From: the human T2T-CHM13v2.0 reference genome, Homo sapiens | Length of the DNA stretch: 64,000 bases | Assembly: GCF_009914755.1 (NCBI RefSeq) | Contig: NC_060925.1 | Reading direction: 5' to 3' (one strand) | Part shown: positions 3,507 through 42,161 of the stretch, piece by piece | How positions within the stretch are numbered: position 1 is the first letter of the stretch | Layout of the letters: each line of letters starts with the position of its first letter | Notes under the pieces: model-generated | Databases searched by the model: none | What the model was told of the DNA's origin: nothing | The model's input: only the letters and a program-made list of their open reading frames with translations | Made by a program: the position numbers and the translations under genes

Positions 3507-4067
<561 letters not shown>

Positions 4068-4159
4068 TCCTTAAATTACTAAGTTAAAAAGATTTTTAAA
4101 AATTTAAATAAATGCTAGATCTGCAGTTGTTGTTGTCGCCTTTCAATGGTAAACTGCTG

Positions 4160-5354: not shown

Positions 5355-5650
<296 letters not shown>

Positions 5651-5841
5651 ATTGTGGTGGGGCCTGAAGTCAGGCCCCTGGGCTGGCAGAAGCAGCAATG
5701 ACAGTCAGTCTCACTCACTCACTGCACCGTGGGCTTCCACCCACAGCTCCTCATTCCTAATGCCAGCCCTTCTCAGAAATGATCTGTAAGTGATCTGTAA
5801 GTCCTTTCTCAGGGACTTAAGGGAATTGCAAATTTATTCTC

Positions 5842-5859
5842 CTGCCACTAGGTGGCAGG
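5842..5859 (+). promoter_or_regulatory. Predicted CTCF site, forward orientation
   Basis: CTGCCACTAGGTGGCAG closely matches the CTCF core. An upstream TGCAAAT at 5827 lies 18 bp before CCACTAG, the canonical upstream-motif spacing. Confidence 0.65.
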
Positions 5860-7734
5860 CAACACGATGTGCATTTTCCAAGGAAGATATTAACGACAGT
5901 CATAAACGGTCCCCCTCTGTCTCCAAGTATTTATTCCCTATAATAAAGTCAGTAAATCTCAAGCTCATTTCTGATTGCAAGCCCAACTTGCTCCATCTGA
6001 GAGCACCCCAGGACTGCCTGCTGTAATGTCTGCCATTCAGGGATTCATAATCACAACTCTGATAATAGCAAATCCTTGTGTCTATGGCATTTTATAGTTT
6101 ACAAAGCACTGTAGGGTTGGTAAAGCTCTTTTGCATGCAGGATCTTATTTGACAAGTGAATGTACATACACACCAAGCCCAGCCATAATGCAACTTCATT
6201 ATACTGATGAACAATGCATACACAATGTCCTGCTGATCCATTTGCATCCACTTTATATGGAAACAGTTGCTACAGAAGGTCTTGGAACCAATGGCAGTAT
6301 TTTAAGGTACTCAACTAGTGATAGGCATCACTTCAGCTCAGTGTCTCTGGGACCACCATGGGGAGGTCAGCAGCTGAAAGGCCAAAGCTTTTGGGCTGGG
6401 CACGACGGGTACAGCATCTCCTCATTTGGTCTAGTAATGCCACATCATAGAGGTCTGGTTTGTTCTTTTTTCACAAACAAGAACCAGCTACATCTTGTCA
6501 TTTGCATATAGCCAGCATGAGTTAAGTCACCCTTGCACTCTGGAATAAATTAATTCGTTCAAGAAGGGAATGAATCCTGTATATGTGAGTGTGTGTGTGG
6601 CGTGGTGGCGGGGGGGCGGATTTGGGGGGATTGAGGGTAAGAGAATTGAAAATCCACTTGTCTGAGATTATTTTCATCTGTCTCGCAGTTTTATAACTCT
6701 TTCTGAAAAGGTCTGATTCCTTTTATTAACAATTGTGAAGGCTTTTCTCCCAGGCTGAATTTAAGAGGCCAACTCTGCATAGGCAGATAGTGATACATTG
6801 CAGAGCTCATCGTTTTCTGTTGTGAACTACAAATGGCACACGTTTGTATTTCATAAAATCAGCATAAAAGCAAAAAATGTATTGGCTTGGAGAGTGAGTT
6901 TGTCCATCAATGTAATATTCCTATTAGTGCAGCTCTTCAGCTGTGGAAAAAAACCACATTGTATTCCAATAATTAAATAGAGCAGGTGAGTGTTAGGACT
7001 TCCACATTAGAAACTCTCTAGTTACACATTGCATATATTTTATTATAGGGCTGGAGGGAAATGAATTTTGCATAATTTTCCGAAAATCCTCACTGCATGT
7101 GGAGGCTACAGAAAGCCATGGCTGTTCCCTTAGACTGATGTTTAATCAAGTCCCTTCCTCTCCAACCGGCCACTGAGATGATGCTGTTCAGTCTCCCTGG
7201 GTCACCCACTGTCCCAGGCCTCTCAGTGCCAGTCTCAGATACCTCTGGTAACATGACTTGCTATTTCAGAATGCAAGTTGCATAGCAGGTGCAAATTCTG
7301 TGATGGAACTTGCAGAATGGACAGAGCAAAATCTCACCAGTTTCATTTCATCTGTGCCCAAAGCAGACTTTATAAAGCAATAAAGACTGAATGTCTAAGG
7401 ACTTAAAAGAAATGTGCTGTGTTATCATCAATTTATGAAACTCCCACAAGGAAGCAGGCATGATACAAAACATACAAATTGTATCGTTGTTGCCTCTGGA
7501 AGTTTAAATGGCAAAGTACAAAATGTTGAAATTGGATATTACTTCTGTCTCACCTCTTTCCTCTCTCTCCCTAACCTTTTTTTAAATTTTCTCTTTTGCC
7601 TTTGAGTTTGAAGGGTTCCCTCTGGCGACTAGAGCTTGGCGAAGACTCTGAGTGTAATATCGTAGAAGACACCGAGGTGTGAGCCACTTCTAAATACTGG
7701 GTCGGGGCTAGGGCCACGAGAGGGGAGTGGCAAG

Positions 7735-7736
<2 letters not shown>

Positions 7737-7782
<46 letters not shown>
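7737..7782. repeat. (GT)n microsatellite
   Basis: About 23 perfect GT units. Confidence 0.95.
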
Positions 7783-7783
<1 letters not shown>

Positions 7784-8389
7784 GAACAAAGGGGTGCAAG
7801 TTAAATGGGGCTAAAAAAGAAGGAAAACAGATGGAGATATTGACTAGGCTGTGTTCACTTTGTTTCTGCGATACATCCTCCCTCCCTACCTCCACATTAC
7901 CATCCAACCCTTTGGGAATTACTGGCCACAAGGACCTTTCCCTGCTTTTGGACATAAGCCTCATACTCATTGCACAAACTCTCCTCTGTGTTTAGAATGT
8001 GTCAGGCATTACGGAAGCAAGGATGACAAGGGCATGGCTCCCACTCTTGACAAGATCCTAATCGTGTGCTGAAGACAATTCTGCCATCCCAGTACAGAAG
8101 AACATGTTCTACAAGGACTGAGCGAAGTGCTAAGGGAACAAATGCATCTGTTCTGAGTGTCTGGGGCAGCTTCAGAGGACAGGGGACATCTTATAAAAGG
8201 CTGAAGGAGATAAAGAAATTCTGTAGAATTCTGGGCAGAGAAGACATACACGTAGTACAAAAGCAGAAAATTGCTCAGCCTGTTTTGAGCGATGATAAAT
8301 TCTGTTGAAGAATATTGAAAATAAGAGTTGTAAAAGTTGGTTTTACAACTGTTTTACAACAGTTGATCTTACTGTCAATTGCTTTATAT

Positions 8390-9380
<991 letters not shown>

Positions 9381-10279
9381 GCCCACTCCACCATGAGCTC
9401 CATTCAAAGCCACAGGGAAATATTACCAGCTTCAAGGAGACAATGACATGGTCTGATCCAATCTGTCCCCAAGATACGGACAACAATCTACTTCGGAATT
9501 TACCATAGCATCTAATAATTTTATTGTCAGCAAGTGTTTCTTTATATCTGACCTGTCATATCTACACTTCCTTTAGAGAATATGAAATATTCTCCTCATG
9601 ACCACAGACTCAAAGACAACTAGTAAGTATTTCTAAAATGTGTCCCCTATAATCAAGCACTGACAAAAAGACTGCCACGTAGTGAGTATTCGGCTAGGTT
9701 CTAGGTTTTTAATAGCAACTAAGATCCAGTCCATGCTGACAAGGAGTTTGAAGTCTGGGACCTAGCAAGACGGCAAAGACAAATCAAACCTCCACCAACT
9801 AGCCAGCAGAGCATTTGGTTATGTTTCTCTGTCCCCTTCTGAAGACCCAGCTCTGTGAGAACTCGGAGGATGCAAAGACTGCCTCTCCCACTGCCCTCCC
9901 CATCCCTGACCTCCAGATGTTTGGGTGCCAGCAGGTTTGAACCCAAGATAGGCAACTCTGCACCGAGAGCTCCTCTCCCACTCGCTGGTGTGCAGTTCAG
10001 TCACAAAAGAAGCCCTCTAGTTCACAGGCTGCTGAGCCCTGACAAGGAGGAAGCAGAGGGCTTCAGGCCGAGCACAGCCAGCCCACGAGACTCTGTGAAT
10101 CCACTCCATGGATGCTTGCTTGCCCAGAGGAAGTTGGTACCCTGAGTCTATCATGCCCTTCCTGGTGACCGAGCCTCAGCACTTCCTGAAAGAGTGAGCA
10201 GCCTGAGAATCAGGACACCTTGGCTCTCACCCACAGGGAGGAAAAGAGGCAGATAAATACTCCTGGGAATCAGAGAATC

Positions 10280-11150
10280 GAGCTTAGAAGCTCCACGATC
10301 GGCCGGATCAGCTGAGCTAGGCAGAAACTACCATTGCTGGAAACCAGGGCCAGAAAAGGAACATGTGGGTGGCACACGCATGAACATCTGGTGCTTCTGC
10401 TGTGACTGGTGACTCTTCCACTCCTCGTTGGGGGGGACACAGGGCCAGGAGACTGGTCCTACCACTTCAACCCCAGCTGTAACCCTAAACCCCCAGCCGA
10501 GTTAAACCCCAAATCATTACTCTGGAGGCTTGGGGAACGGAGGCAGGAGTTGGCATTATTTTTCCACGCAAGTCGGAGCCTGAAAGCTTTGTTTCAGCAT
10601 AGGCGGAAGCCTCCACTCCAGGGCTTGGGGTGGGCTCGGGAGGCCGCCCGCCGTCGGCCTGACTCACAGCGAGCTCGGCGCTCCCTCTTGTGGCTTCTGT
10701 GTTCCCCGTCAGCCTCGGGAAGCTGCCGGCCACCACATACAAATGGACTCCGCGTAGTTAAGCTGTCAGGTCTAATGTATTTATTTGACTCTCTCCTGTT
10801 AAAATGATTTCTCTACAGCACTGCGGTTATTTACGACTATTGTCAGTACAAGGCGATGAGAAGGCAGCAGCAGAGGAAAACAACAACAGCTGAAGGAAAA
10901 GTTCTGTCTGGGAGGGCTGGGTGGCTGGGTCCCGGGCTTTCCCGCGGCTGCAGCGGCTGTGTGTTTACTTTATCTGCAGCGGGGGCTTCGGAGCTCATCC
11001 ATCCATAATGCAGAGCCCATTGCCCTCAGCCCGCAGTTCACGGCCAGCCCCAGTGAGCGCCCTTGCGGAGGAGCTGTGGCCCGGGGAGGACACCCCCAGC
11101 TCTTTTGAGCGCTAAACATTTTCACAGAGACCCCGCGAATGGGCTTTTGG
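10280..11150. promoter_or_regulatory. CpG-enriched unique segment, candidate enhancer or promoter
   Basis: Locally high CpG without a recognisable repeat. Motifs: AP-1 TGACTCA at 10660, posterior-HOX TTTACGAC at 10830, E2F-like TTTCCCGC at 10938, FOX TGTTTAC at 10962. Confidence 0.45.
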
Positions 11151-22740: not shown

Positions 22741-23784
22741 TGGGGATGTGAGAGGACTAACAAGCACGAGGCTGTTGCCCACCCAACTGGGGGTTTCACG
22801 TCCCTCCCATCTTCGTCTCCTGGAACCAAGAGGACTTAGAGCATAAACAGAGCCTCCTTCCGCCAAGGGAACACTGGCTCAGATGACTTTTTGTTAAAGT
22901 GGGTGTGTATTTTTGGAAATGTTCTGGAGCATAAGTGCATAAAACGCTGGGTCAGACAGTGCCTGGGGCTGTGCGTAGGGAGGAGACTGGGCACTCCAAA
23001 GAACGCTGGAGCAGCAGCTTCAAAAAGTGGTTTGATATTTTTTCCTCCTGATTTTGATCTTAAAAATGTCTGGAGCCCCAGACAGCCACCGGCAGCTTTG
23101 TGCAACAGGGGCTCTAACCACCACGACCTCAACAGCCACACTGCAAAGGCTTCTAGTTAACAGAACTCTTTTGTGTGATGGAAAGCGAGGGAAAGCGTGA
23201 GAGACAGGAAAACGCTGGGGTTGACAGAGACAGCTGGTTTCTGTGGCAAGGCTTCAGAATTGTCAATGGAAAAACACAGTGGAGACAGCGAGAAATGCTG
23301 AGGCGCTCTGTGTGATCCTGGAAGCATGTTCCTTCGGCTGGCCCTGACGGAGCCAGTTTTCTTCTTTCTGGACTGAGAAAGCAGATAACTCAGCTCCTGA
23401 TCTCTCAATTGCTCTGTCTTTGACCAGTGACAAGATGGCATTGATGAGTTCCCGAAGGAGTCTGACTCCTCTTGGATGAATTTTTTTAAATTCTGTTTCT
23501 TGCTTCTTCTTTTCCGAGTAGTTTTTCATGAGCAGAGATGGCAGGAGCAGACATCGTGGTTATCCAGCCACCATTTGATCACGTTGTGGTCCCCATTTGA
23601 GTGACACCCAAAGGACATGAATTATGCTAAGTGTTTGGGGCTGCTGGGCACCCCTTTGCCAAGGAAAGCACTCAGCCCCAGGTCTGAGAGAGTTGTGGCA
23701 GCCACTCATGCCATGGATTTCAAAGATGCTAGGTTGGGTTTACTACCATCGCCCCAAACCCAACTTTCCAGCCTTTTCTACCCC

Positions 23785-23910
23785 TACACACACACATATT
23801 CACACACATACACACACACACACTCTCTCTCTATATATATATACACACATACACATATATATATACACATTGTGTGTATATATATATATTTACACATATG
23901 TGTGTGTGTA

Positions 23911-23964
<54 letters not shown>

Positions 23965-24022
23965 CCTGCCTGGGCCCACTGCCCACTAACATTGGTGCCA
24001 GCATACACCACTCTGGGGCCAT

Positions 24023-24065
<43 letters not shown>

Positions 24066-24124
24066 GTGTGTGTGTGTGTATATATATATATACACACACA
24101 CATATATAGTGACAATTCTGAATA

Positions 24125-24170
<46 letters not shown>

Positions 24171-24194
24171 TGTGTGTATGTGTGTGTGTGTGTG
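23785..24194. repeat. Compound (CA)n/(TA)n/(TG)n microsatellite with a 60-bp unique insert
   Basis: Alternating purine-pyrimidine tracts, interrupted at 23960-24020 by L1-derived sequence. Confidence 0.95.
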
Positions 24195-26449
24195 CATTCA
24201 CAGAGCCAAACATCGATCCCACATGCCTGAAATTTAGTTTTGAACTCTCCTATTCAAATTGTTTCCTAATGCAACATGGAAACAAGGATACATTTGAAAA
24301 GCAAAAAAGACTGGAAGGAAACTGTTACTAAAATATTAAGAATGGTTGTGTCTGGATGGAAGAATATAAAATGATATCCTTCCTATATTAATTTTATGTT
24401 ATAAAATTTTTATGAGAATATATTTTTTTTAAATGAGGGACATTTAGATTTCTTAAATATAGAAAATCCAATAAGGGTAATATGTTCAGACCTTACCAAG
24501 TCTTGAATTTGAGAACTCTCTGGGGGAAAGGCCCTATAAAAAGTGATAAGCGTCATGTGCTTTTGGGGAGCGGAAATGTCCAGGGAGGTGAAGACGTGCT
24601 GAAAGGGGTTGTAGCAAGACCACAAGGGTGTATTTGATATTTTGAAATAAATTTTCTGGAGTCAGTCCCTGGCTTTAGTGTCTTTATCTGTAAAGTGAAA
24701 GCACTGCATTAAATGATCATGAAAATAGTTTGTAATGTACAATAACTAGAGTTTTGTCAGCCTTTAGTGTCCTGGGAGTTCTCAACTTCCTTTTATCCTC
24801 TCTTTTCTGTCTCTCTGTTTGGAATCTAGAGGGCAGTTCTAAGACCTTTAGATGAAAATCACAACTTTTCTAGTACAACAGCATCACAAGGGAACTTAGG
24901 GCTTACTCATAAGGATACTGTAGATCTAAATGAGGCACCCAGAGCTCACTAAGGCTATCTATCTGCCTGACCCTCAATAACAATGAGTCCCTATCATGAC
25001 AACACCTATATTGCCACCCCTCACATGTCTGTGTAGGAGGGTATCACACAAAAGCTTCACAGTCACTTTTCAGATTTCAGAATCTAGGAAGATAAGAGAG
25101 GGTGGTGATGAAATCAGGGGCTTTATAATTAATCAAATGTGAGTCTGAACCCCAACCCTGCCTCTTCTCAGCTTTGTGATATTAAGGATGTTATTCAACC
25201 TCTCTGGTCCTCCATTTTCTCTCACTCAAAACATAGATACTGATACCTCACTTATAACTCTATTGGAGGTGTATTTAAGAAGACAAAGTGTTTGGCATAT
25301 GGCAGGTGTTAGATATCTTCCCTCTTCCTCATAACTTAATTTCTTATTGGTTCCACAAAATCTCATTTTCTCTTGCCCTAACTTCAGGAGAAACTGGGAA
25401 ACAACACATTGTTTCCCGGGGGCAAAATAGTTTTATTATTCTCAAATTCGAGCCCCATACATCAGTACCAACTATCAGAATTGACATCCAACTCCCAAAA
25501 CTCCAAGAAACACCTGCCCCAGAAATCCTGATTTTTCCACTTCATTTCTTCTGTCTCTAAATTATCTACACCCACACACAAACACACCCCCCCAACACAC
25601 ACACATCCCTCAATCATATCCACTCTTCTCCACACAAGATTGACTAAATATCCAAAGATATGCCCTGATCTTTCACCACCAGCTAAATGTCTTTAGATGT
25701 TACTACTTTGATTATAAACCCTGCCTTCTCTTCGTATTATCTCGGATGCCAACCCCATGAGACACATTAAATACATAATGCATTTTGACTTGCATCTGGG
25801 CTATGCTGTCTGGTGTGGGGAGGTTACAGCAGAAGCATATGCCTGCTTCTTAAAATTCAATTATTCAAATTCAATTTCTTCTCTTTCTCCCAGTCCTCAC
25901 CAGCATGTAGCCCCTGACTTTTCATTAGATCACTCAAACACCAGCACTGGAGCCAGAAGTTTCTGTCTTCCATTTAATTTGATTCGGCGGATGTTCGCCA
26001 TTGTTGTAGCTGTTACTTTGCACTGTTCTAGGCACTGAGGGCCCAAAGATGTAGAAGACAGAACAGCAACCCTTAATAAGTTCATGTCCTGGTAGATAGA
26101 GAAATGCATCTATATTTAACCCCAATAGTGTGTGACAAGAGCAATTTAAGTATAAAAGATAAAATAATATGAGAGTGCAAAAGGATAAAGCAATTAATTA
26201 TTTCACTATGGGAGTAAGGAATCAGATAAGATCTCATAACTACAATATGGGTGGCAAAGCACCATATGCTCACCGGAAATGAAGATTAGAGTCAACCAAA
26301 GCAGAATTAGGGTGCCAAATATTGTTCTAAGCTCAGGCGGGGACTCCTGGGTTTAGTAAGAATAGGAAAATCACAAATTTCTTTTATTTCAGAAGAACTG
26401 CCCACCAGCAACTGATAACCTTTCTCAGCTCCATTCCCCAGCTCATGCT

Positions 26450-29779: not shown

Positions 29780-32741
29780 AGTTAAATGGAAAATAATACA
29801 GTTTGATTTCATTTTTGCTTTGAAAACACACACATACACACATAAACACACACACACGAATGCACACAGGAAATTTTAAAGACTGGAAGGATATACACTG
29901 AAATATCAATATTAGCTATTTCCAGGTTTTATAAATGACTTCTATTTTTTTGCTTTGTGTTCTGCTGTGCTTTCAAAATAAACTTGTAGTAAACCTGTCT
30001 ACTTGTAATAATAAAAAATAGTTTGTTTATAAGACTGTTGCTTGGGAAGCCATCCCTTTATGCAGTTACAGTAAGAAGAATGTCAGATGGCCGAACAGGC
30101 CCTCCTCAACGTGCATCCTCAGGGCAAGCCAATTTCATTTCATTTCACCACTTGGAAGCGCTCTTTTTCCCCAACCCCACCAGGATGGCGAGAGAGAGGG
30201 TGCCAGATGGTGGAGTGGCTTTGTAGTCCTTTTAAGATAGCTTCATCTATTGTTGGGACAGTTTAAGCACTCAAAGTTGTGTCACCTTCTAGTCTTTGCC
30301 AATAATGTTATCATTTGATATGGAAACGATGCATACCATTAAAATGGTAATTTGATTTTTAAATGTGCTTCAGCAGCCAGCGCGCCCTGACTGAAGTATT
30401 TATCCTGTTTTTCCAAACCCTTTCTTCTTGAGCCACAGTAAGCGAGCTGCATGGATTAAGTTCAAGTGTGTGATATATCTTCTTCATCCTTTTGTTTGTT
30501 TGTTTGTTTATTTTATGAATGGGACAGGTTTGGCAAATATTCCTTCCCTAGAGGAAGCCAGGAAGTGAACTCTGGTTGTTCAGATTTTACTACCTGCCAT
30601 ACTGTCTTATTCATCAGGTATATCCAAGGCACCTCTCACAACTTGCAATATAGTAGATGCTCAGTAAATCTCTATTAAATGAACAAATGGTGTGGCTTGC
30701 ATAAGTGAATAAAGTCAGTAATTCACTTAGAAAGCATACCTATCTAAAATTTCTCCATTACAGTCCCAGAGGCAGAACTGAATTTAATTAGAGACAACAT
30801 AGAAAATGACATACATGGTGGCATCTGAGCAATAGGGCCACTCAACTCAAAAATTTTCTACCAAGGTGCCTAGAATTCCACCAAAAGATATGCATTCCTT
30901 TGGGTTAAATCACTTCTGAAGTCTCCTTTTGAAATTCAAAATCCTCAGGAGAAAACACCATATTAACCCTTTATTGTCCGGTACAGTTGAGCTTACCAGT
31001 TAACTAGTGTTTACTTAGGACTCTAGAGAGCGAGGTCTGTGACTATATCTGGATGAGAAGGAGGGGTCAGGCATCCATGGTGGTGCTATACAAGGCAGAT
31101 ATATATATATAGTCTAGGATAGCCAGAAAGTAGCACGAACACTCTGTGGGGCTAGAAAAGAGAAAGGCGGAAGTTAATTAAGGAGTCATATGAAGAAAGA
31201 AAGATGTTGAGGAAAAGAGAGATTAAGTGAATTTAAATAAATTTCACCTATTTAAAATTTTCCCTTGGGCTGGCTTTCCTTTCTATTAATTCCTTCTGGT
31301 GATGCCCCAATGCTGGCTGGCCATTCACAAAGCTCCTGACCTTTTAAGTAAATGCATCCCATTTATTCTATGTTTAGTGTCTGAAAGGGATGGTGGAAGA
31401 GGTTGATAATGGGATGGTTAAAGGAATTAAACACTTGTAGAGTTTTAACCCAGACCATCAAAATGCAGTCTTGATCTAGGCATTCAAAGTGGGTATTAAG
31501 TTCAAGATCTGACTCTGGAGATTTCCAGAATGAAACAAGAGGGAAAATGGGACAGCAGAGAACAGAACTAAATGAAATGGACTGGAATTGAAAGGAGTGG
31601 TGTTCAATTCTTACAAGGAGAATATAAAATTTCAGCCGTGTCACTAGCTCACGATCTCATCAGTTAGTTGAAAGAATTAAGTATCTTTGAGAATAAATCT
31701 TAGAGAAGAATCCATTTAAAAAAAAGAAGATGATGAATTAGCTGTATAAAAGATTTAGGTTCAGGAAAATCTAGGTTATTAGTGGATGTTGGCCATGGGG
31801 AGATTAAATAATGTTCCTCTCCTTCAATTTGTGTTTGTTTAATGCAGAAATTGGCTGGGCAGCATTACTAAGCCTTCGTGATAAAGAGAAGTTTGAATTC
31901 CAAGAAACATGTCACCCACCTTCTCCAGTCCATGTTCCTGCCAACCCTAGTTCAGCATCCAAATTTGTGAGAGGTGAAAAAAAAATGAAAAGTATGAAAA
32001 CGTGATGTAATTTTCTTCCTTGTTTAATTATGAAAAGGTTGCTTTACTCTCCTTCCTTTCTACATTGTGAGCCTTTAGGGAGGAGTAAGACATTTTCAAC
32101 CTGCTTACCCAAGCCATTATCAGAGTAGATTAGAGCTAGCAACCTTGCATGCAAATGGACCAACTTGACAAAAAAAAAAAAATTGGAATTTAGATAGCAA
32201 CAAATAAACTGTATTGAAGGCTAATTTCAATGCTTTGCCCTTGCATTGATGGAGCTGAAACTAGGACAGAGTTATTGAGTTGTTTAGCTGCATTCTCTCT
32301 CCTTTAGGACTTATTATACACGACTCCTCTCTCTCAATCCTCATCTGCCCTCCATGCACAAACACACCTGCCCCAGCACAGATTCTCTGTCTACTTAAAG
32401 CTAACAGTTACCATCACTCCACAGATGTCATATGATCAAATAACTCTGCTTATGACTTCAGGGCACAGCCAGATACCATAGGGTACTTGTTGGAACAAGC
32501 CATCTCTTAGTCACATATTTCTCACCTGCATGCCTTTCAGGAAATACCCCAGGCATTTATTTTCCAGATGAATTATATCTGTCATTCTCACCAATTTCTT
32601 TCTATATCCCCTCAACTCTCGCCAACTCCTTGTCTACATCTCTGAAGACAGCTTGTAGCAAAAATGCACAGCCAGCAAAATTTGCCTTTGGGCTGTCTTG
32701 TTTGTTCCTCCACCATGTCCCCATTCTTGGTGTCCTCTCAA

Positions 32742-33100
32742 TCCTTCCAATCTACAAATATGGCTTTTCCTTTTGTGTGTGTGTCCTCTTCAATTTCATT
32801 CATTGGTGTTTTATAGTTTTCATTCCAAGATCTTTCACTTCTTCGGTTGTTTTTCCTACTTATTTTTTTGTAGCTATTGTACATTAGCGCACTTTCTGGG
32901 TTTCTTTTTCAGGTTGTTCACTGTTGGCATATAAGAAGGCTATTGATTTTGTATGTTGATTTTGTATCCTGCAACTTTACTTAACTGTTTATCTGTCCTA
33001 AGAGTTTTCTGATGAAGTCTTGAGGTTTTCCCATATAGAAGATCACATCATCTTCAAAGATGATTTGACTTTCTTATTTTCCATTGAAGAATGCCCTTTA
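32742..33100 (-). mobile_element. L1 ORF2 fragment, inverted copy of 33673-34046
   Basis: The reverse complement aligns end to end with the neighbouring + strand L1 segment. Confidence 0.85.
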
Positions 33101-33104
33101 GATT

Positions 33105-33545
33105 GAATATGACCAGTTGCAGTAAGTTTAAGCCAGTTTTCAACTGGCCAAAATTGGTTTTGCATAGCTATGACAGGACACAACCAGTTTAGACTGGTTC
33201 TGACCATAGCTATGACAGGCCACAACCAGTTTAGACTGGTTCTGACCATCTGTAATTGGTTTTGGCTGGTTTGGGCCAACCTCAACCTGTTCATACCAGT
33301 TCTGCCAGGTTATGGCTGGTTCTGATAGGCTTAGACCAATTACACCTGGTCACAACTGGTTTAGACTAGTTATGACTGCCACAGCCACTTTAGACTGGCT
33401 ATGGCTGGCCTCAACCAGTTTTGCCCAGCTTTGTCTGCCTACACTTGGTTTACACCAGTTCAGACTGATTATGGCCTGTTCCAACCAAATCAGTCCTGTT
33501 TCAACTGGCCACAACCACGTTAGACCTTCTCTTACGAGGTGCAAT
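33105..33545. repeat. 10-bp-period degenerate array (ACCAGTTTAG/ACTGGTTCTG), left block
   Basis: CYRG cores recur about every 10 bp. Includes a 42-bp near-perfect tandem duplication at 33163-33204 and 33205-33246. Confidence 0.85.
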
Positions 33546-33549
33546 TAGT

Positions 33550-34307
33550 TTAGTGTCATATGGAACTGGGAAAACCTGAGATACGGAACAAGCCAAAAAT
33601 GCCCACTTTCACTACTTTTTTTCAACATAGTACTGTAAGTCCTAGCCAGAGCAATTGGATAAGAAAAAGACATAAAGGGCATATAAACTGGAAATAATAA
33701 AGTCAAATTATTCTTGATTGAAGATTACATTATCTTATATATGGACAAACCTAAAGACTCCATCAAAAAATTCTCATAACAGATACACAAATTCAGTAAA
33801 ACTGCAAGATAAAAAATCAACATACAAAAATCAATAGCCTTCCTATATGCCAACAGTGAACAATCTGAAAAAGAAAACCAAGAAAGTGCTCTAATGTACA
33901 ATAGCTACGAAAAAGAAGTAGGAATCAATTCAACCAAAGAGGTGAAAAATCTCTAGAATGAAAACTATAAAACACCAGTGAAAGAAATTGAAGGGGACAC
34001 ACACAAAAAAGGGGAAAGATATTCCATGTTTACATATTGGAAGAATCAGTATTGTTAAATGTTCATATTACTCAAAGTGTTCTATAGATTCAGTGCAATC
34101 CCTATCAAAATATCAGTAATATTCCTCACAGAAATAGAAACAATAATCCTAAAACTAATACGGAGCCACAAAAGACCCATAATAGCCAAAGCATTCTTAA
34201 GTAAAAAGAACAAAGTTGGAGGCATCACACTACCAGACTTCAAAATGTACTATAAAGTTATAATAGCCAAAACAGCATGGTAGTGGCACAAAAAAATAAA
34301 CATAGAG
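33550..34307 (+). mobile_element. L1 ORF2 fragment, 5' of the retrocopy
   Basis: ORF 34059-34283 ([10 protein letters not shown]...[18 protein letters not shown]...KTAW) is L1 ORF2. Confidence 0.92.
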
Positions 34308-34944
34308 GTCCCGGCGCCACTCGGCCCAGAGGGACCGGTCCACGGACTGGACCGCCGGGACCACCCGGCCCGGCCCGGCCCCTGCCTGCGCCTCTCCGCG
34401 CCGCCCTGCGCCCCGCCCGCGAGGCCGGGCCGAGCAGCCAGGTGCGGCGGGTAGGGGATGCCGTGGGCGGGGCCCAACGGAGCGGACGGAAGCACGGGGC
34501 GCGGGGCTGGACCCCCGGACACCCCGTCCCGCGCCCCCACCCCCTGTAGGCGCCGCGCAGCACCTACCTGCGCCCTCCCGGACCCCGCGCGCTCGGCGCC
34601 GGTGGGGGCTTCTCAGGTGACCGCGGGGCCGGGGTCGCGGGCTGGGCCCTCCCGGCTGACAGCAGCGCCCGTGCCCCGCGCCGGATTGGGGGCCGAGGCC
34701 GGGGCCAGGGTTGGCCGGAGCGCGGAAGGTTGGGGAGGAGAGGCAGGCCGCCCAGCCTACGGGTACCCGGTTCCAGCGCGCGCGGGAGGCTTGCAGAGGC
34801 GGCCGAAGGCCTAGTGACAGGCGCGCGGCGCAGACCCCGGAAGCCCACTTGTCAGAATTACCGGTCAGCTGGGCCGGCGCCGCCGGGGTCTGGGGTGGTC
34901 CCACGAGTCTGCACGTTGCTCCGGGACCCAGGGGCTGCGCCCAG
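34308..34944. promoter_or_regulatory. CpG island carried in the 5' leader of the retrocopy
   Basis: Very GC-rich and CpG-dense (8 CpG in 34321-34380 alone), with a GC box (CCCCGCCC). Flanked by AT-rich L1. Confidence 0.8.
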
Positions 34945-37408
34945 AAGTCATTTTTCTTCTCTGGGAGGGTGACCATTTATAGCATTGATTTCCCAGATTT
35001 AGTAACATGGCAAAAGTTGCTGGTCTAATTGAAGCAAACGGAGAACTCAAGGTCTTCATAGACCAGAACCTTAGTCCCGGAAAAGGCATTGGTGTCCCTC
35101 ATAGCCGTTCACCCCTCCATCGTCAGCCCGCTCGGGAAACAGCTCTTGCCGAAAACCTTTGGACAGTCCAATGTCAACGTTGTCCCGCAAGTGGTAACCG
35201 GTACGCCTCAGAGACCGGCAGCGTCAAACACCCTCGTGATAGGTAGCCCACACACCGCCAGCACTCACTTTGCCTCTCAGAACCAGCCTTCCGACTCCTC
35301 ACCTTGGTCTGCCGGGAAGTGCAACAGGAAAGGAGAGAAGAATGGCAAGGCCTGTGGCATTTCTCCAGGAAGGTCTGAGACAAGGTGCAGTGGAAAGGGA
35401 CCACTTCCTATCACGAGGTGGCGGACGAGCTGGCAGAGGAATTCAGTGCTGCCGGCAACCACATCTTACCAAGCGAGTCAGCTTATGACCAGAGCAACAT
35501 CGATGGCGCGTCTACTATGCCTTAAACGTGCTGATGGCCATGAACATCTCCAAGGAGAAGAAGGAGATCAAGTGAGTTGGTCTGCCCACCAACTCGGCTC
35601 AGGAATGTCAGAACTTAGAGGTGGAAAGACAGAGGAGACTTGACAGAATAAAACAGAAAATCTCAATTTCAGAAACTTATTCGACAGCAAATTGCCTTCA
35701 AGAACCTGGTGAAGAGAGAAACCAGCACGCGGAGCAGCAGGCCAGCCGGCCAACGACGCCCAGCTGGCTCATCCACCTGCCCTTCATCATCGTTAACACC
35801 AGCAAGACCGTCATCGACTGCAGCAGCATCTCCAACGACAAATTCGAGTATCTGTTTAATTTTGACAACACATCTGAAATCTACAATGACATAGAAGTGC
35901 TGAAGCGGATGAGCATGGCTTGTGGGCTGGAGTCCGGGAGCTGCTCTGCCGAAGACCTTAAAATGGCCAGAAGTCTGGTCCCAAAGGCTCTGGAGCCGTA
36001 CGTGACAGAAATGGCTCAGGGAACTGGTGGAGGCGTGTTCATCACGACGGCACGTTCCATGTCTAACGGCAAGAAGCTCTCTGCCAGTGACCTGACCAAT
36101 GGTGTGGATGAGATACTGGCCACAAGCTCCAACCTCAGTACAATGGCTCCAGGGTGGAGACCCCGGTGTCCTACGTCGGGAAGGATGACGAGGAGGACGA
36201 CTTCAACGAGAACAACAAGGACGACTGACGTCCTCTCCACTTCACATTCAGCTTCAGGAAAATGTTTAGGGAAAATAAACTTTTTTTTTTCAATGTGGGT
36301 TTTCTGTTTCCTTTAGGCCTACTCCTAAGAAGATATTGGTAAGCCATTGAATTTAGATATGCACCTCTGATAAGCAAGGATTGTTTACCGTGGGAGTAGG
36401 ACGTGCTGTGGATCTATGTTTTGATACCAGTGTGCTGATGCCCAGCATTTATTTACTTTTTAGGATTTTGTGTTTTCATTTTCTGTTTTTAAGTGCAGAC
36501 TTAATTTTTGCCCCTTAACAGTTTTTGCTGAGTTTGCTGAAGAAATTGTATTTCATCCACATACATGAAAATAAAACGCCCTCCTGTTGTGGATGGTGAG
36601 CACCGAATGCCGTTTATTTGTCGTGAGTTTGGACAGCACCCACGCTGGCTGATAGTGAGACTCTGCGGAGTTGTCCATTTGTTCAGTGGTACGGTGTCCA
36701 AGAACCCCAAGCAAACAGCAGAATTCGACTTTCTAAACAATAAACACCATCAACCTTACTGACTTTATTCTCCCTTAAATTATATTGACTGTTGTGATTC
36801 CATCAAGTTTATACACTTTCTCTATTTTGCAGCAACAAATTGCAAAGTGCTTTTGTTTGTTTTTGTTTGGTTTGGTTAAAGCTTATTGCCACACTGGTGC
36901 AGCTATGGAGACTGTCTGGAAGGCTTGGGATGGTTTATTGCTTATGGTAAAATTTGCCTGATTTCTTACAGGCAGCGTTTGGAAACCTTTTATTATATAG
37001 TTGTTTACATACTTACAAGTCTATCATTTAAAGACATGTACTGAAACAAATGTTGTATTTGTTTCATAAGCATCTTCCTGTAATCTATTATAAAATTGAA
37101 ATTAAATATAGGGAATGTTTTAACAATTTTTAACTCAAAATTTGTCATTTTTAATAGTTCTTTTTTTATAAAAAGAAAAAAGGAATTTAAGGACAGGCAG
37201 TAGTCTTTTAAAATTTATTCACAAAATCCATTAACTGCACGGTTGCTATTAGCTGCCTGTTCTAAAATGAGTCTTTTTATTGAAACAAACTTTTCTGTAA
37301 TATTTTATGGAATATAAAGAGACTTTAATTGTTTGACTTGTTTACCTTGGCGCTGTTGGTTTTTATTAATGAAACGTGCATGGGCATCTAAAAAAAGATA
37401 AAAAAAAA
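34308..37408 (+). pseudogene. TFDP1P: Processed pseudogene of transcription factor Dp-1 (TFDP1)
   Basis: Intronless CDS remnant 35007-36228: [27 protein letters not shown] / [16 protein letters not shown] / [12 protein letters not shown]...[12 protein letters not shown] / [29 protein letters not shown], ending in acidic-tail codons and TGA at 36226. Frameshifts near 35088, 35350, 35660-35710 and 36133, and stops in the DNA-binding region (gtc TGA gac, aag TGA gtt). Has a 3'UTR, an A tail at ~37390-37408, and TSD AAACATAGAG at 34298-34307 and 37409-37418. Confidence 0.97.
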
Positions 37409-37921
37409 AAACATAGAGAACCCAGAAATAAATTCGCAAATATACTGTTAACTCATTTTCAACAAAGGCATCAATAACATACATTGGGAAAAGGATAGTC
37501 TCTTCAATGAATAGTACTGGGAAAACTGGATATGCTTATGCAGAAGAATGAAACTAGACTCCTATTTCTTGCCATATAAACAAATCAAAATGGATTAAGG
37601 ATGTAAATTTAAGACCTAAAACTATGCAACTACTAGAATAAAACATTGGAGAAACACTCTAGAATATTGTTCTGGACACAGATTTCTGGAGTAAGACCTC
37701 AAAAACACAGGCAACAAAAGCAAAATTTGACAAACAGAATCACATCAAGCAAAAAAGCTTCTGCACAGGGAAGAAACAACAAAGCCAGTTTCAACTGCTT
37801 TAAACATTGAGCAAGGACTTGAGTAGCCATTTCTACAAAAACAATTTGTAAATGTCCAAGAAGCACATGAAAATATGTTCAGCATCGTTACTCACAAGGT
37901 ATAGGCAAATCAAAACCATAA
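37409..37921 (+). mobile_element. L1 ORF2 continuation, 3' of the retrocopy, with an internal deletion
   Basis: Resumes at 'atagagaacccagaaataaa...gcagaagaatgaaactagac...aaaaaagcttctgcacag' and jumps at ~37784-37805 to 'gcaaggacttgagtagccatttct'. Confidence 0.9.
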
Positions 37922-38054
37922 TTCACGAGTTTATTTTTAATTTGAGGACCTCCAATAATCTATGGTTTGCTGTTCATCATGTGCTGCTACTGTTCTATGA
38001 ACAGTCATGAGCAGTCAGCGCTGGACACTGCTGTTTACCCCTGAACACTGCCCA

Positions 38055-39530
38055 TCATAACCAGGTGAAGCCAGACATAATGAGTCAAAACCAGGAGAAA
38101 CTAGCTAAAAGCTAGTCTAAACTGGCCGAGATCGGCTTCAACCAGTTGTGACTGGCCCCAGCCTGTTTATACCAGTTCTTTCTGGTCTAGGCTATTTCCA
38201 ACTGATTTAGATGAGTTTTAACTGGCCACAAATGATTTAGACTGACTATAACTGGCTACAATCTGTTTAGACTGGTTTCTTCTGGCCACAATTAGTTTGG
38301 ATTGGTTATGACCGACCATGACATGTTTAGACAGATTGAACATGGAACAACTGGTTTAGGCTGGTTTATACCAGCCACAGTTAATTTTGGCCATTTCTGA
38401 CTGGTCTTGGTCTGTTCCAAATGGTTTAGACCCGTTTTGACTGTCCCAAACTAGTTTGGACCTATTATGACCAGCCACAACTGGTTTAGACTGGTTTTAA
38501 TAGGGTATAACTGGTTTAGGCCAATTTTCAGTGGCCACAGTTTGTGTTTCTCACTGGTCGTGGTTTTTTACAACCAGTTTTGACTGATTTCAATAGGCCA
38601 CAATAAGTTCAAACCAGTTCTGACTGGCTGCAGACAATTTAAGCTGGTTGTGGCTGGTCACAACTTATTTTAATTGGCCACAACTGTTTTAGAACACCTA
38701 TGCCCAGCCTCAGTTTTGACTCATTACTCATTTTGACCAGCTGCAATTGGTTTATGCCTGTTCTGACTGGTCATGGCTGATTCTGACCAGTTTAGACTAG
38801 TTTCAACCAGTTTAGGCTGCCTCTGATCAGCTGCAATTGGTTTTGACTGATTTTGACCTGCCATAATTTGCCTGAACCAGCTATGATTGGCTGTGACTGG
38901 TTTAAACCCTGCCTAGACCATCCACAACCAGTTTTGGTGGGTTTCAATCAGTCATTGATGATTCTAACCAATTTCAACTGGCCACAACTGCGTTAGACCA
39001 CTTTTGACCAGCTGCAAAATATTGATGCTGGTTTCAGCTAGGCTCAACTGTGACTTGTTACAACCAGTTTAAACTGGTTCTGATTGATCATGGCAGGCTC
39101 TTACCGTTTTGACTGGTTATAACTAGCCACAAATGGTTTAGACCAGTTCTGACTGGCTGCAGCTGGTTTAGGCCAGTATTAAGTGGCCCACAACACCAGT
39201 TTCTAATGGTTATTGAAAGGCATGACCAGTTTAGAGTGGTTTGAACTGGGCACAACAGATTTATGCTGGTTCTGATCCATTACTGCCTGTTCCAATTTAT
39301 TTTGACCAATTTTAATGGGTCACAGCTGCTTTACACTGGCTATGGCCGAACCTAACTGGTTTCAACTGATTTTGACCAGCTACAATCAGTCTATGCTGGT
39401 TCTGACTAGTCATGGTTGGTCCCAATCAATTTGGAGTAGTTTCAACTGATTGCAATCAGTTTAAATTTAGGCTGTGATGGCCCAACTAGTTTAGGCCAGT
39501 ATTGACTGGCCACAGTGGGTTTGGATTGGC
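38055..39530. repeat. 10-bp-period degenerate array, right block (~1.5 kb)
   Basis: Cores CTGG/CTGA/CCAG/CTAG/CCAG/CTGC at 38767, 38777, 38787, 38797, 38807 and 38817. 'cacaaccagtttagactggtt'-like phrases recur throughout. Confidence 0.9.
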
Positions 39531-39714
39531 CTTTTCAAAACCTGATCTGGAAAGGACCCATGCTGGTTAATTATTCATTAGTGTGATTGCTTTTATCTCA
39601 GACATTTGGGTTTAAAGCCCAATGAGAAGTCTTCCTTTTGTACCCTCAAGGACCTTTCTAGTGCTAGTGATGGGATGGAGAGGAGAGGTTCTCTAGGACT
39701 CTGAATTATACCTC

Positions 39715-39915
39715 CCTAGGTAAGTTTCTCCAGGTATGGTGTGAGGACCCTGAGCATCAAAATTACCTAACACACTGATTAAATAAGCAACTGGACTGCT
39801 TCTCCCCCGCCAACCCCCAAACACTACTGAATAGGACTTGTTGGGGTGAGCACAGAAATCTATCATTTACTAAAACCTCCTGATGATACTGAAGCCCAAC
39901 AAGGTCTGTAAACTT
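39715..39915. mobile_element. MER5-family hAT fragment
   Basis: 'agtttctccaggtatggtgtgaggaccctgagcatcaaaattacct...cctcctgatgatactgaag'. Confidence 0.5.
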
Positions 39916-42161
39916 ATCCTGGGACAATCAGTGTAAAACACTGTGCTTGCCTAGCTCTTTAACTCCCTTCTTGGTTACCCAGCCCTATTTCCACATTTTC
40001 CAAATGGGAAATTGTCCCAGAGCCACTGTGTGACTTACCAAAGATCAAACAATTGGTTAGCACAAGAGAGAGCATTGGAAAGCAAGCTTTCAGATTCCAA
40101 AACCAGGATTTTGCACCTCAAACTTAGTTTAGGGAGGGTGACACAAACCTAGAGGGTATTTATAATAAAATGACTGTCGAAACTGCCTAACCACAGAAAC
40201 ATATCTTTCAAACATGCTTCAAATTATCATTTAGCACATGTCCAAATGATCAGAAAAATTTCTTAGACCTCACGTGGAGACTTCAGGCAGATATTCTAAC
40301 TTTCCATGAAGTATTGAGAAACTCTACAAAACCCCTTCATTCCCTGCTACTATTCCTATGATTGAGCACATCACATCAGGGCTACATCTCTGAGCCTCTT
40401 AATATTAGAAATCCCTTTGCTTTTACCTATATGATAGTATTTAGTTGGGACAGTGGAATTTGAATGTAATCAAGACCAGAAAAAGAAGCAACATGAGCTG
40501 CCTTGGTAAAGAAGTCAAGATTATGGACTTCAAAGTTCCTGAAAGAGATTGTTTCAAGCCAGAAGAGGCCAGGATGAACTACAGAGTAGAAAAAGATTTC
40601 GGAAACAAAGATTATGTCAGTGATGACTACAAAGGTCATGCTTATGATGATTTCTGATCATCATAAATGGGGATGACCTATTTATAGATAACAGGATGCT
40701 AACTTCTGCTGGTAAGAAGAGTTCAATCCCCTTTTGAGTCTGACTTGCTTGACCTAACCCATCTAAGGCACTGCACAGGAACTTTCAATAACTATGATTC
40801 AAGGCTATATATTTTAACTTTGGATCTTCCAACTTTTAGAAAGTCTATTCTTTTACGGTACTGAAACCAGAAGTGATCCACTGGAGAAAAATAGAAAACA
40901 AGGACAGGAGAGCAGAAACTAAATTGATGAAAACTCATAGGGTTGAGTTGAGAAAAGGAAAAGGCCATTTCATTTACTTAATGAGAAATTGTATTGAGGA
41001 GTAGGTTTGGGGATTTGGTTTTTGTTTTCTGTACCATGCAGAGAGCATTTTCCACCCCCAAAAGATTTTAGTCTTTGTGAATTCTAATCATTCCCCAAAG
41101 GACAATTTTCTTTGACTAAATAAGGTTTCTTGGTTGTAATGAACTGTAAAAGAGACTTATAAGCTCTTACTCACTTATGAAACCATCACAGATGAAAAAC
41201 AATTAGAAGAATCTTGCTTCTTTAGCCTGCAGAAAGTGGAGCAAGAATCTCCAACCTTGGGTAGGTTTTAAAGTCCAACTCAGGAATATTGGGCTTCAAG
41301 GCCTCAGGAAGGATTAAGGTCAGACAGGATGGATGCCTCATCAATGTTCTTCCTGCATGTGAGAGATTCCAGCCTAGCCCATGAACCCTTGAGAAAGAAC
41401 TCTGAATCACTAAAGCACCTCTCATTTAAAGAGTATGTGTTCTGTGAGATAATATTAACTTGCCAAATCTGCCTTTCCAAAGGAAGAAACGTGACCCATT
41501 TATAAATGTTGAGTTAGAAACTCCATGCAGAATTAAGTGACCTCTGGAAGTTGTCTACCAGAGTGTGGATTCTACAGATATTTCTTCAAAGACTAAAAAG
41601 GCTTATTTCTCTTCAAAAATCTCAGCTGATTTTCCACAGCTGGCCTCAGAAGCATGCAGGAGGCTCTGGCTCTTTCATCTGGGCAAGGCTGGCAGAGGAA
41701 GGAGGAACCTTCTTCTTTCGTAGGCAGATTATGAGAATAAATTATCGCTCATGCTCCTAAGATATCTATATGGAAATAGGTGGACAAACACCTGATTTAG
41801 AAAGGATTAGAGTATTTATAACAAGTCTTTCTGAGCCTGGGAAACATTAATACAATCTCTAAACAAATGGGAACTATAAAGAAATATTATTAAGCTAAAC
41901 ATGTATTCATATTCAGGGACAGACTTACCTCTTTCTGTTTAGATCATTTCCAAATTAAGAACAATTCCAAGCAAACCCCCACCACCTCACATGGATTCTA
42001 GTAGACAAATAGCTGTGTCTCCACAATACTGGGAATATTGGAGACAGGCAAATGTTGCATGTCCAGTTTGAAGGGTGATTATACGAATTGGGTCACTCTT
42101 GTCATATCCAACTAAATCAGTCAAGAAGCCAGGGTGGGAAAGCACTTGGAGCACATAACAC

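What the first reader, a model, noticed from the sequence alone, without database searches (positions are those of the whole stretch)
33105..39530. ~2 kb of a 10-bp-period, CpG-decayed ACCGGT-type array that reads as tandem CP2/TFCP2L1/Grainyhead sites
Seen: two blocks (33105-33545 and ~38055-39530) are built from decamers such as ACCAGTTTAG, ACTGGTTCTG and ACTGGCCACA. CYRG-like cores stay in 10-bp phase, for example at 38767, 38777, 38787, 38797, 38807 and 38817, and CCAGTTTAAACTGG occurs at 39064-39077. Neighbouring units form small hairpins (AACCAGT-TTAG-ACTGGTT). I see no intact CCGG. Established: CP2/LSF-family tetramers (TFCP2, UBP1, TFCP2L1) bind CNRG-N6-CNRG, with a CCAGTTCAAACCAG-type consensus, and GRHL proteins bind AACCGGTT. 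Inference: the CCAG/CTGG mixture is what methyl-CpG deamination on either strand would make from an ancestral (ACCGGTTnnn)n. The decay would leave a CpG-free, helically phased, high-density binding platform. I do not recognise it as a named human satellite.
Basis: partly seen in the sequence, partly recalled or inferred. Interest (0 to 1): 0.8.

Follow-up and report, generated by a model that had tools for sequence, protein, structure and literature searches.

The report
Old decayed 10-bp/30-bp tandem array
This is a real but very old and worn tandem repeat, one of about a dozen similar arrays in the human genome, whose likeness to CP2/Grainyhead binding sites follows from its repeat geometry and has not been shown to mean anything functional.

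Summary
Window 33105-33545 and 38055-39530 show base autocorrelation peaks at 10/20/30 bp of 0.39-0.46 against a mean of 0.25; control stretches are flat. The unit is a 30-bp trimer of one decamer: CYRG+TTTAGA, CYRG+TTCTGA/TTTTGA, CYRG+CCACAA. There is no CCGG. The two blocks are separated by a LINE-1 ORF2 fragment that itself carries the TFDP1P1 retrocopy.

Core positions 2 and 3 vary almost only as C/T and A/G, and CCAG versus CTGG is independent of the 30-bp register (p=0.58), although the spacers are register-specific.

The array is not unique. At least 12 loci in this genome carry the same design, five of them on X.

CNRG-N6-CNRG pairs are 25-fold enriched over shuffles, but any CYRG array at 10-bp spacing gives that. 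Only 77 of 188 cores survive. Cores are kept no better than spacers. There is no ORF, Pfam or Rfam match.

Best reading: a neutral relic of an ancient (RACCGGYYNN)n array. Factor binding, Dfam status and orthologues could not be tested here.

The parts
32741..33100 (-). Short inverted LINE-1 ORF2-derived fragment that abuts the left edge of block A
   Evidence: Its reverse complement aligns to window 33673-34046 at 86% over 357 aligned bases and at 83.7% over 343 by blastn. A protein search with its longest frame found no solved-structure hit at E<=0.01, so the LINE-1 call rests on the DNA match to the confirmed fragment.
33105..33545 (+). Array block A: about 44 decamer slots, 30-bp unit, including a younger 42-bp duplication at 33163-33249
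   Evidence: Autocorrelation peaks at 30/40/10/60/20. Mean identity to the 30-mer is 0.736. The 42-bp repeat has 2.1 copies at 97%. Cores: CCAG 7, CTGG 10, CTAG 1, CCGG 0, other 26 of 44 slots.
33546..34298 (+). LINE-1 ORF2 fragment, 5'-truncated against block A (first part)
   Evidence: Window 34059-34280 translates to 74 aa that match residues 815-888 of human LINE-1 ORF2p, E 5e-23. The start near 33546 is read by eye.
34299..37418 (+). TFDP1P1 processed pseudogene with poly(A), inserted into the LINE-1 and flanked by the 9-bp duplication AACATAGAG
   Evidence: AACATAGAG occurs at 34299-34307 and 37410-37418. Exon-by-exon matches to chr13:112.84-112.90 Mb run from query base 9 (window 34308) to the A-run. 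The last exon is 89% identical over about 1.3 kb.
37419..37925 (+). LINE-1 ORF2 fragment, continued; it ends inside ORF2 with no 3' end and no poly(A)
   Evidence: It is colinear with the LINE-1 beside the chr19 array: 37413-37617, 37611-37768 and 37853-37922 against chr19:39814084-39815006. The end point is read.
37975..38033 (+). Flank piece 'F': a 59-bp imperfectly palindromic sequence directly left of block B
   Evidence: It aligns to chrX:25264956-25265014, at the right edge of the chrX:25.26 Mb array, in inverted orientation: score 61 against a null maximum of 22, z 20.4. There are only two copies in the genome. Of 10 pattern hits, 8 proved unrelated, and the blast query found only itself.
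38055..39530 (+). Array block B: about 144 decamer slots, 30-bp unit CYRG-TTTAGA / CYRG-TTYTGA / CYRG-CCACAA
   Evidence: Autocorrelation peaks at 30/60/20/10/40. Mean identity to the 30-mer is 0.704. Cores: CCAG 20, CTGG 31, CTAG 8, CCGG 0, other 85 of 144 slots.

Best explanation
The two blocks are what is left of one old tandem array of about 1.9 kb and 188 ten-base slots.

Origin (inferred). The founding unit was a 30-bp trimer of a decamer of the form RA-CCGG-YY-NN: CCGG+TTTAGA, CCGG+TTCTGA, CCGG+CCACAA.

Decay (inferred). After the array had been amplified, its methylated CCGG cores deaminated independently, unit by unit, to CTGG or CCAG. The rest of the unit drifted to about 70-74% identity with the consensus.

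Interruptions (shown). The array was later broken by LINE-1 sequence, into which the TFDP1 retrocopy then inserted.

Family (shown). It is one of at least 12 arrays of the same design in this genome.

Present state (inferred). It is most likely a neutral relic. Its CP2/TFCP2L1/GRHL-like look is an automatic result of CYRG cores spaced 10 bp apart and is not evidence of a maintained binding platform. How the family spread is open. Some members are segmental duplicates of each other. For the window's array, the only shared non-array sequence is the 59-bp piece F.
For: - Periodicity and unit.
- Decay in place: at core position 2, C/T are 0.35/0.50, 0.33/0.63 and 0.29/0.62 in the three sub-decamers; at position 3, A/G are 0.47/0.40, 0.30/0.60 and 0.33/0.60; other bases are rare.
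- CCAG:CTGG is 9:8, 8:11 and 8:14 in the three sub-decamers (chi-square p=0.58), while the top spacers are class-specific: TTTAGA 13, TTCTGA/TTTTGA 5+5, CCACAA 8.
- CCGG survives in phase in relatives: chr1:182.2 Mb 8/57, chr11:50.6 Mb 5/156, chr19:48.12 Mb 3/63, chr16 2/66.
- The second family group shows the same signature in its spacer: CCGTGA alongside CCATGA and CTGTGA.
- No sign of upkeep: 77 of 188 slots keep CYRG. Core C and G are kept at 0.56-0.83 against 0.60-0.94 for spacer positions.
- No coding or RNA signal: no frame of 80 aa or more, with the longest in block B being 63 aa; no Pfam match below E 0.05; no Rfam match.
- Age: the array predates a LINE-1 fragment, which predates a retrocopy now 89% identical to the last exon of its parent.
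- Family: blast and pattern hits at chr19:39.81, chrX:25.26, chrX:72.98, chr1:244.56, chr16:69.70, chr17:52.56, chrX:48.12, chrX:111.46, chrX:50.28, chr19:48.12 and chr16:77.83 Mb. Ten of these were confirmed as 10/20/30-periodic by my own scan; chr16:77.83 was not fetched.
- The window and chrX:25.26 share the top spacer TTTAGA and piece F.
Against: - Binding by CP2-family or GRHL proteins was not and could not be tested. About 23 CYRG-N6-CYRG and 50 CNRG-N6-CNRG pairs remain in B, so occupancy in some cell type is possible.
- Neutrality is inferred from one genome. No orthologues were available.
- CTGG outnumbers CCAG in most arrays (window 41:27, chrX:25.26 75:45, chr11 66:30). Symmetric deamination alone does not predict this.
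- A family of a dozen arrays, 5 of 12 on X, argues for some spreading mechanism or bias that I did not identify.
- Dfam was not searched, so the family may already have a name and a known carrier element.
Confidence: 0.7

Rival explanations
1. One reading: the decayed array is a CpG-free, helically phased, high-density platform that CP2/LSF-family tetramers (TFCP2, UBP1, TFCP2L1) and perhaps GRHL proteins occupy, with a regulatory or sequestering role.
For: CNRG-N6-CNRG occurs 50 times in B and 20 in A, against 2.0 and 0.8 in 200 dinucleotide shuffles. AACCGGTT with up to 1 mismatch occurs 11 and 5 times against 0.3 and 0.1. Two control stretches give 0-3. The consensus sequences come from the finding's text and my recall, not from a matrix library.
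Against: The enrichment follows from the repeat geometry. Only 41% of cores survive, and they are kept no better than the spacers. No AACCGGTT is intact. RefSeq's functional elements in the window lie at 2478-10795, not at the array. A full-text search for TFCP2L1 together with tandem repeats found 8 papers, of which 7 were listed; judged from titles and abstracts only, none is about such arrays.
Confidence: 0.07
2. The array is the internal tandem-repeat region of an old mobile or composite element, for example a hexamer-VNTR-unique element built like SVA, or a DNA transposon with repeated binding sites. That would explain why a dozen loci share the design.
For: The arrays are dispersed over chr1, 16, 17, 19 and X. 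Short non-array flanks are shared: F between the window and chrX:25.26, and a right flank among chrX:72.98, 48.12 and 111.46 (z 9-22). Degenerate CCCTAA hexamer runs lie beside the arrays at chrX:72.98 (both sides), 111.46 and 50.28.
Against: chrX:72.98 and 111.46 stay colinear for at least 830 bp beyond the array, through a shared hexamer run and a stretch I read by eye as a LINE-1 fragment. That indicates segmental duplication, not transposition. F has only two copies. I recognised no target-site duplications or terminal repeats. The arrays have no ORF or Pfam match. The window has no hexamer run.
Confidence: 0.18
3. The array acts through DNA shape: G/C-rich cores and T-rich spacers alternating every 10 bp give curved, nucleosome-favouring DNA, and the CCAG/CTGG mixture gives hairpin or cruciform potential that could stall replication or promote rearrangement.
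For: T is 0.84-0.94 at positions 5-7 and 0.75-0.81 at positions 15-16, while G/C cores recur every 10 bp. Single-strand folding gives z -6.75 and -7.23. The locus does show rearrangement: an inverted LINE-1 fragment, a LINE-1 lacking its 3' end, and F inverted relative to chrX. That phased A/T tracts bend DNA is recalled knowledge and was not computed here.
Against: No curvature or nucleosome model was run. Self-complementarity follows automatically from random CCGG decay. Insertions and rearrangements are ordinary in sequence of this age.
Confidence: 0.04
4. The array is the remnant of a coding 10-residue repeat (30 bp = 10 codons) from an old gene or its retrocopies.
For: The unit length is a multiple of three. 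The minus strand of the consensus lacks stop codons, and minus-strand frames are somewhat longer than plus-strand frames in 3 of 4 arrays tested.
Against: The longest open frames are 52-63 aa in block B and at most 98 aa in the best-kept arrays. There is no Pfam match below E 0.05 for 6 frames. The strongest period within the unit is 10, which breaks the frame.
Confidence: 0.01

Closest known systems
Ancient decayed minisatellites / simple-repeat arrays (the kind TRF, ULTRA or RepeatMasker report as long-unit simple repeats)
   Same: Head-to-tail units of 10 and 30 bp, a higher-order 30-bp register, copy-to-copy identity of only 55-64%, broken by later retroelement insertions, no coding capacity.
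   Different: The same decamer design recurs at about a dozen loci with partly shared flanks, five of them on X. The unit carries an 8-bp near-palindrome, RACYRGYY.
CP2/LSF-family sites (CNRG-N6-CNRG) and the GRHL site AACCGGTT
   Same: Half-sites sit exactly 10 bp apart. AACCAGTT and AACTGGTT are one transition away from AACCGGTT.
   Different: No intact CCGG, no evidence of occupancy, and cores are not preferentially conserved. Known functional sites are single or few, not about 190 in tandem.
Tandem arrays that act as factor platforms (DXZ4 and FIRRE with CTCF, GGAA microsatellites with EWS-FLI1; recalled)
   Same: Many phased copies of a short protein-recognition-like motif in tandem.
   Different: Those arrays are bound in experiments, and several are kept homogeneous. 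This array is heavily decayed and untested.
SVA-type composite elements (hexamer run + VNTR + unique part; recalled)
   Same: The X-linked relatives show a degenerate hexamer run, then a short-unit array, then about 450 bp of unique sequence.
   Different: No poly(A), target-site duplication or high copy number was seen. The window's array has no hexamer run. The two best-matching X copies look like a segmental duplication.

Membership tests
Tandem repeat (minisatellite class) | Periodic self-similarity well above background | tested here: met
   Lags 10/20/30 give 0.39-0.46 against a mean of 0.25; controls reach at most 0.315.
Tandem repeat (minisatellite class) | A consensus unit to which successive copies align head to tail | tested here: met
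   Wrap-around alignment to a 30-mer gives mean identity 0.736 (A) and 0.704 (B).
Named human satellite or Dfam/Repbase repeat family | Significant match to a curated consensus or HMM | not testable with these tools
   No Dfam, Repbase or RepeatMasker is on hand. NCBI's soft-masking (the hub's table) leaves both blocks unmasked but gives no family names. Full-text searches for six strings from the arrays and for 10-bp-repeat phrases found nothing relevant.
CP2/LSF-type binding site | Two CNRG half-sites 10 bp apart | tested here: met
   50 (B) and 20 (A) against 2.0 and 0.8 in shuffles, with 0 of 200 shuffles reaching the observed count.
CP2/LSF-type binding site | Occupancy by TFCP2, UBP1 or TFCP2L1 | not testable with these tools
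   No ChIP-seq, ATAC or in-vitro data are available here.
GRHL binding site | AACCGGTT with an intact CCGG core | tested here: not met
   CCGG occurs 0 times in A and B. Only one-mismatch forms occur, 11 in B and 5 in A.
CpG-decayed sequence (CCGG to CTGG/CCAG) | Variation limited to C/T at core position 2 and A/G at position 3, arising independently in copies that share the rest of the unit | tested here: met
   Composition table and chi-square p=0.58 for core state against sub-decamer. CCGG is retained in phase in relatives.
Transposable element (internal array) | Common termini or target-site duplications across copies, or coding remnants | tested here: inconclusive
   Only pairwise or triple flank sharing was found. 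F has 2 copies. There is no ORF or Pfam match. No target-site duplication was recognised.
Segmental-duplication family | Long colinear flanks shared between loci | tested here: inconclusive
   Met for chrX:72.98 vs chrX:111.46 (at least 830 bp at 79-81%) and for chr1:182.2 vs chr11:50.6 (flank scores 416-430). For the window, only the 59-bp F is shared, with chrX:25.26.

The most novel reading that the evidence does not exclude
The dozen arrays are relics of one early-mammalian family of once-perfect (RACCGGYYNN)n arrays. That would mean kilobases of tandem Grainyhead/CP2-type palindromic sites, spread by an unrecognised composite or mobile element with a bias to the X chromosome. Some copies, perhaps including this one, would still recruit CP2-family factors or shape chromatin.
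Probability: 0.07. Interest if true: 0.7.

Novelty: new member of a known kind. Interest (0 to 1): 0.3.

Why it matters
If the plain reading is right, this is ordinary: an old minisatellite worn down by CpG decay and retroelement insertions. The lesson is that a transcription-factor look can arise from repeat geometry alone.

Two points go slightly beyond that. First, the in-place CCGG decay can be read directly from the independence of core state and 30-bp register, which makes it a clean example of methyl-CpG mutagenesis. Second, the array belongs to a small dispersed family, 5 of 12 loci on X, whose way of spreading is unknown and which I could not find described.

If CP2/GRHL factors do occupy these arrays, they would be large motif sinks that standard unique-mapping ChIP pipelines could overlook.

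Tried and rejected
- Coding remnant: rejected. The longest frames are 52-98 aa and there is no Pfam match.
- Structured RNA: no Rfam match at gathering thresholds in 32500-40000.
- A third block at 23601-24300: it is a (CA)n/(TA)n simple repeat.
- The 17-mer ACCAGTTTAGACTGGTT as a genome-wide family marker: 27 hits against 28 for the reversed control. 9 of the 27 lie in the window's array and the chrX:25.26 array.
- F as a common transposon end: rejected. The blast query found only itself. The pattern gave 10 hits, and the 8 new ones did not align beyond the seed.
- F related to the right flank of the X-linked group: not significant (z 0.8-3.3).
- Telomere-like hexamer runs in the window: none.
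- A simple regex measure of array polarity did not discriminate (28 forward vs 31 reverse in B). I therefore leave open the orientation of F relative to the array.
- Twin-priming as the source of the inverted LINE-1 fragment: unlikely, because the two pieces cover the same ORF2 stretch. What twin priming normally produces is recalled.
- Pfam on short LINE-1 frames: no hits. A solved-structure search then confirmed ORF2p for the plus-strand fragment but not for the minus-strand one.
- Three literature searches gave nothing relevant; I read listings and abstracts only.
Full report
**What is there**

Reading the two stretches shows runs of decamers of the form CYRG plus six bases. Base autocorrelation confirms a strong periodic signal.
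- Block A (33105-33545): 0.453 at lag 30 and 0.408 at lag 10, against a mean of 0.253.
- Block B (38055-39530): 0.462 at lag 30, 0.407 at lag 20 and 0.393 at lag 10, against a mean of 0.258.
- Two control stretches of the same window never exceed 0.315.

A sliding scan of the whole window finds this signal only at 33101-33600 and 38001-39600. The other flagged places are a (CA)n/(TA)n repeat at 23601-24300, a GC-rich stretch whose background is equally high, and one borderline window.

Default TRF sees only fragments. With softer penalties it reports 30-bp units with 55-64% matches between copies.

Wrap-around alignment to a 30-mer gives mean identities of 0.736 (A) and 0.704 (B). The unit is a trimer of one decamer: CYRG-TTTAGA, CYRG-TTCTGA/TTTTGA, CYRG-CCACAA.

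**What separates the blocks**

- Block A abuts a 5'-truncated LINE-1 ORF2 fragment. Window 34059-34280 matches residues 815-888 of human ORF2p at E 5e-23.
- The TFDP1 retrocopy sits inside that LINE-1, between two copies of AACATAGAG (34299-34307 and 37410-37418).
- The retrocopy matches the exons of TFDP1 on chr13 from window 34308 onward. The last exon is 89% identical.
- The LINE-1 resumes at 37419 and stops near 37925 without a 3' end.
- Left of block A lies a 360-bp inverted copy of the same ORF2 stretch, 86% identical.

So the order of events is array first, then LINE-1, then the retrocopy.

On age: taking 11% divergence for the retrocopy, and Jukes-Cantor distances of about 0.33-0.38 from the unit consensus for the array, the array is tens of millions of years old and probably around a hundred. 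This is my own arithmetic and uses a recalled neutral rate of about 2e-9 per site per year. The second figure is an upper bound, because the founding copies need not have been identical.

**CpG decay**

CpG depletion itself is not diagnostic. The blocks have o/e 0.09 and 0.12, and the control stretches have 0.08 and 0.11. The shape of the variation is diagnostic.
- In each of the three sub-decamers, core position 2 is almost only C or T and position 3 almost only A or G.
- The joint states over 188 slots are CCAG 27, CTGG 41, CTAG 9 and CCGG 0.
- The choice between CCAG and CTGG does not depend on the sub-decamer: 9:8, 8:11 and 8:14, chi-square p=0.58.
- The six-base spacers are sharply sub-decamer specific.

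CCAG and CTGG differ at two positions. A fixed non-CpG ancestor could not yield a near-even mixture within each class by point mutation. Independent deamination of CCGG on one strand or the other, after the 30-bp register was laid down, does yield it.

Relatives back this up.
- The paralogous arrays at chr1:182.2 Mb and chr11:50.6 Mb keep CCGG in phase in 8 of 57 and 5 of 156 slots. Matching units read CCGG in one copy and CTGG in the other.
- chr19:48.12 Mb keeps 3 of 63.
- The second group of arrays shows CCGTGA alongside CCATGA and CTGTGA in its spacer.

One caveat: CTGG outnumbers CCAG in most arrays, which symmetric decay does not explain.

**The array is not unique**

Blast and pattern searches of the window's own genome found the same design at these places:
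- chr19:39.81 Mb
- chrX:25.26 Mb (about 3.3 kb)
- chrX:72.98 Mb (the best-kept copy)
- chr1:244.56 Mb
- chr16:69.70 Mb
- chr17:52.56 Mb
- chrX:48.12 Mb
- chrX:111.46 Mb
- chrX:50.28 Mb
- chr19:48.12 Mb
- chr16:77.83 Mb

I confirmed 10/20/30 periodicity in all of them except chr16:77.83, which I did not fetch.

Pattern counts:
- Four CYRG-YYNN-RA decamers, exact: 39 matches against 19 for the reversed control.
- The same with one mismatch: 139 against 46. In the 100 rows listed, nearly all fall in the same loci, and 11 fall in the window's array.
- The looser CYRG-N4-RA pattern: 576 against 219. It also picks up unrelated pentamer repeats.

Spacer spectra sort the arrays into three groups:
- TTTAGA/TTTTGA group: the window and chrX:25.26 (top spacer TTTAGA in both). 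chr19:39.81 and chr17 share TTYTGA/TTTCAR-type spacers less clearly.
- CCATGA/CTTTGA/CTGTGA group: chrX:72.98, 48.12, 111.46 and 50.28, chr19:48.12 and chr1:244.56.
- Purine-spacer CCGG group: chr1:182.2 and chr11:50.6.

Five of twelve loci lie on X. Counting 5 of 11, one search gives binomial p about 1e-4. Four of the five share flanks and are not independent; counted once, p is 0.056.

**How the family spread**

- chrX:72.98 and chrX:111.46 remain colinear for at least 830 bp beyond the array, at 79-81%. The shared stretch runs through a degenerate CCCTAA run and a piece I read by eye as a LINE-1 fragment. This indicates segmental duplication.
- chrX:48.12 shares the first about 70 bp of that flank.
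- chr1:182.2 and chr11:50.6 share both flanks.
- The window shares only a 59-bp piece, F (37975-38033), with the right edge of the chrX:25.26 array. It is in inverted orientation (score 61 against a null maximum of 22, z 20.4).
- F has no other copies in the genome.

I found no common termini, no target-site duplications and no coding remnants. A transposon origin is therefore possible but unsupported. Why F is inverted relative to the blast-defined array polarity is unexplained. F is itself an imperfect palindrome, and the units are nearly strand-symmetric.

**The binding-site reading**

The array does match the CP2-type geometry far above shuffles. This cannot be otherwise for CYRG cores spaced 10 bp apart. 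Against a maintained platform:
- 59% of the cores are gone.
- The outer C and G of the cores are kept no better than the T-rich spacer.
- No AACCGGTT is intact.
- RefSeq's functional elements in the window lie elsewhere (the hub's table).
- The literature searches turned up nothing on such arrays. I read listings and abstracts only.

Occupancy in vivo remains untested. The strong hairpin potential (z -6.75 and -7.23) and the 10-bp alternation of G/C cores and T runs are real sequence properties. They follow automatically from the unit and from random CCGG decay.

**Verdict**

- The CpG-decay inference is supported.
- The functional platform is unproven, and I judge it unlikely.
- The claim of uniqueness is wrong.
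- Naming against Dfam, orthologue comparison and factor binding are the open tests.

Noticed in passing
window 34300-34950: The TFDP1 retrocopy starts about 615 bp upstream of the annotated TFDP1P1 span (34924). This 5' part is still CpG-island-like (GC 0.78, 84 CpG, o/e 0.85), although it is only 76% identical to the parent's first exon region. It may have stayed unmethylated in the germ line.
   Followed up: partly
window 32741-33100 and 33673-34046: Two copies of the same LINE-1 ORF2 stretch lie in opposite orientation, 86% identical, on either side of block A. The plus-strand LINE-1 also lacks its 3' end at about 37925. The locus has been rearranged in a way I did not resolve.
   Followed up: partly
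window 33163-33249: A 42-bp duplication inside block A at 97% identity, much younger than the rest of the array.
   Followed up: no
L015 7520-7622; L016 207-273; L025 1340-1412; L026 5193-5313: Degenerate CCCTAA-type hexamer runs lie directly beside the X-linked arrays at chrX:72.98 (both sides), chrX:111.46 and chrX:50.28, all on the same strand as the array. The window has none.
   Followed up: partly
L022 5300-5900 (chr1:182.228 Mb) and L023 4700-6300 (chr11:50.589 Mb): A paralogous pair of 10-bp arrays with purine-rich spacers (ATAAGA, TCAGGA, ACAAGA) still carries CCGG cores. CpG o/e is 0.39 in the chr1 copy and 0.13 in the chr11 copy.
   Followed up: partly
L018 4760-5050 (chr1:244.5598 Mb): A short (about 290 bp) but much more homogeneous array of GTGACTAGCC-type units: identity 0.86, CTAG cores, CpG o/e 0.54. 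It looks like a younger local expansion of the same motif.
   Followed up: no
window 23778-24202: A compound (CA)n/(TA)n simple repeat. This explains the only other period-10 signal in the window.
   Followed up: yes
window 39700-39920: The sequence right of block B looks to me like a MER5-type hAT element. This is recalled resemblance only and was not tested.
   Followed up: no
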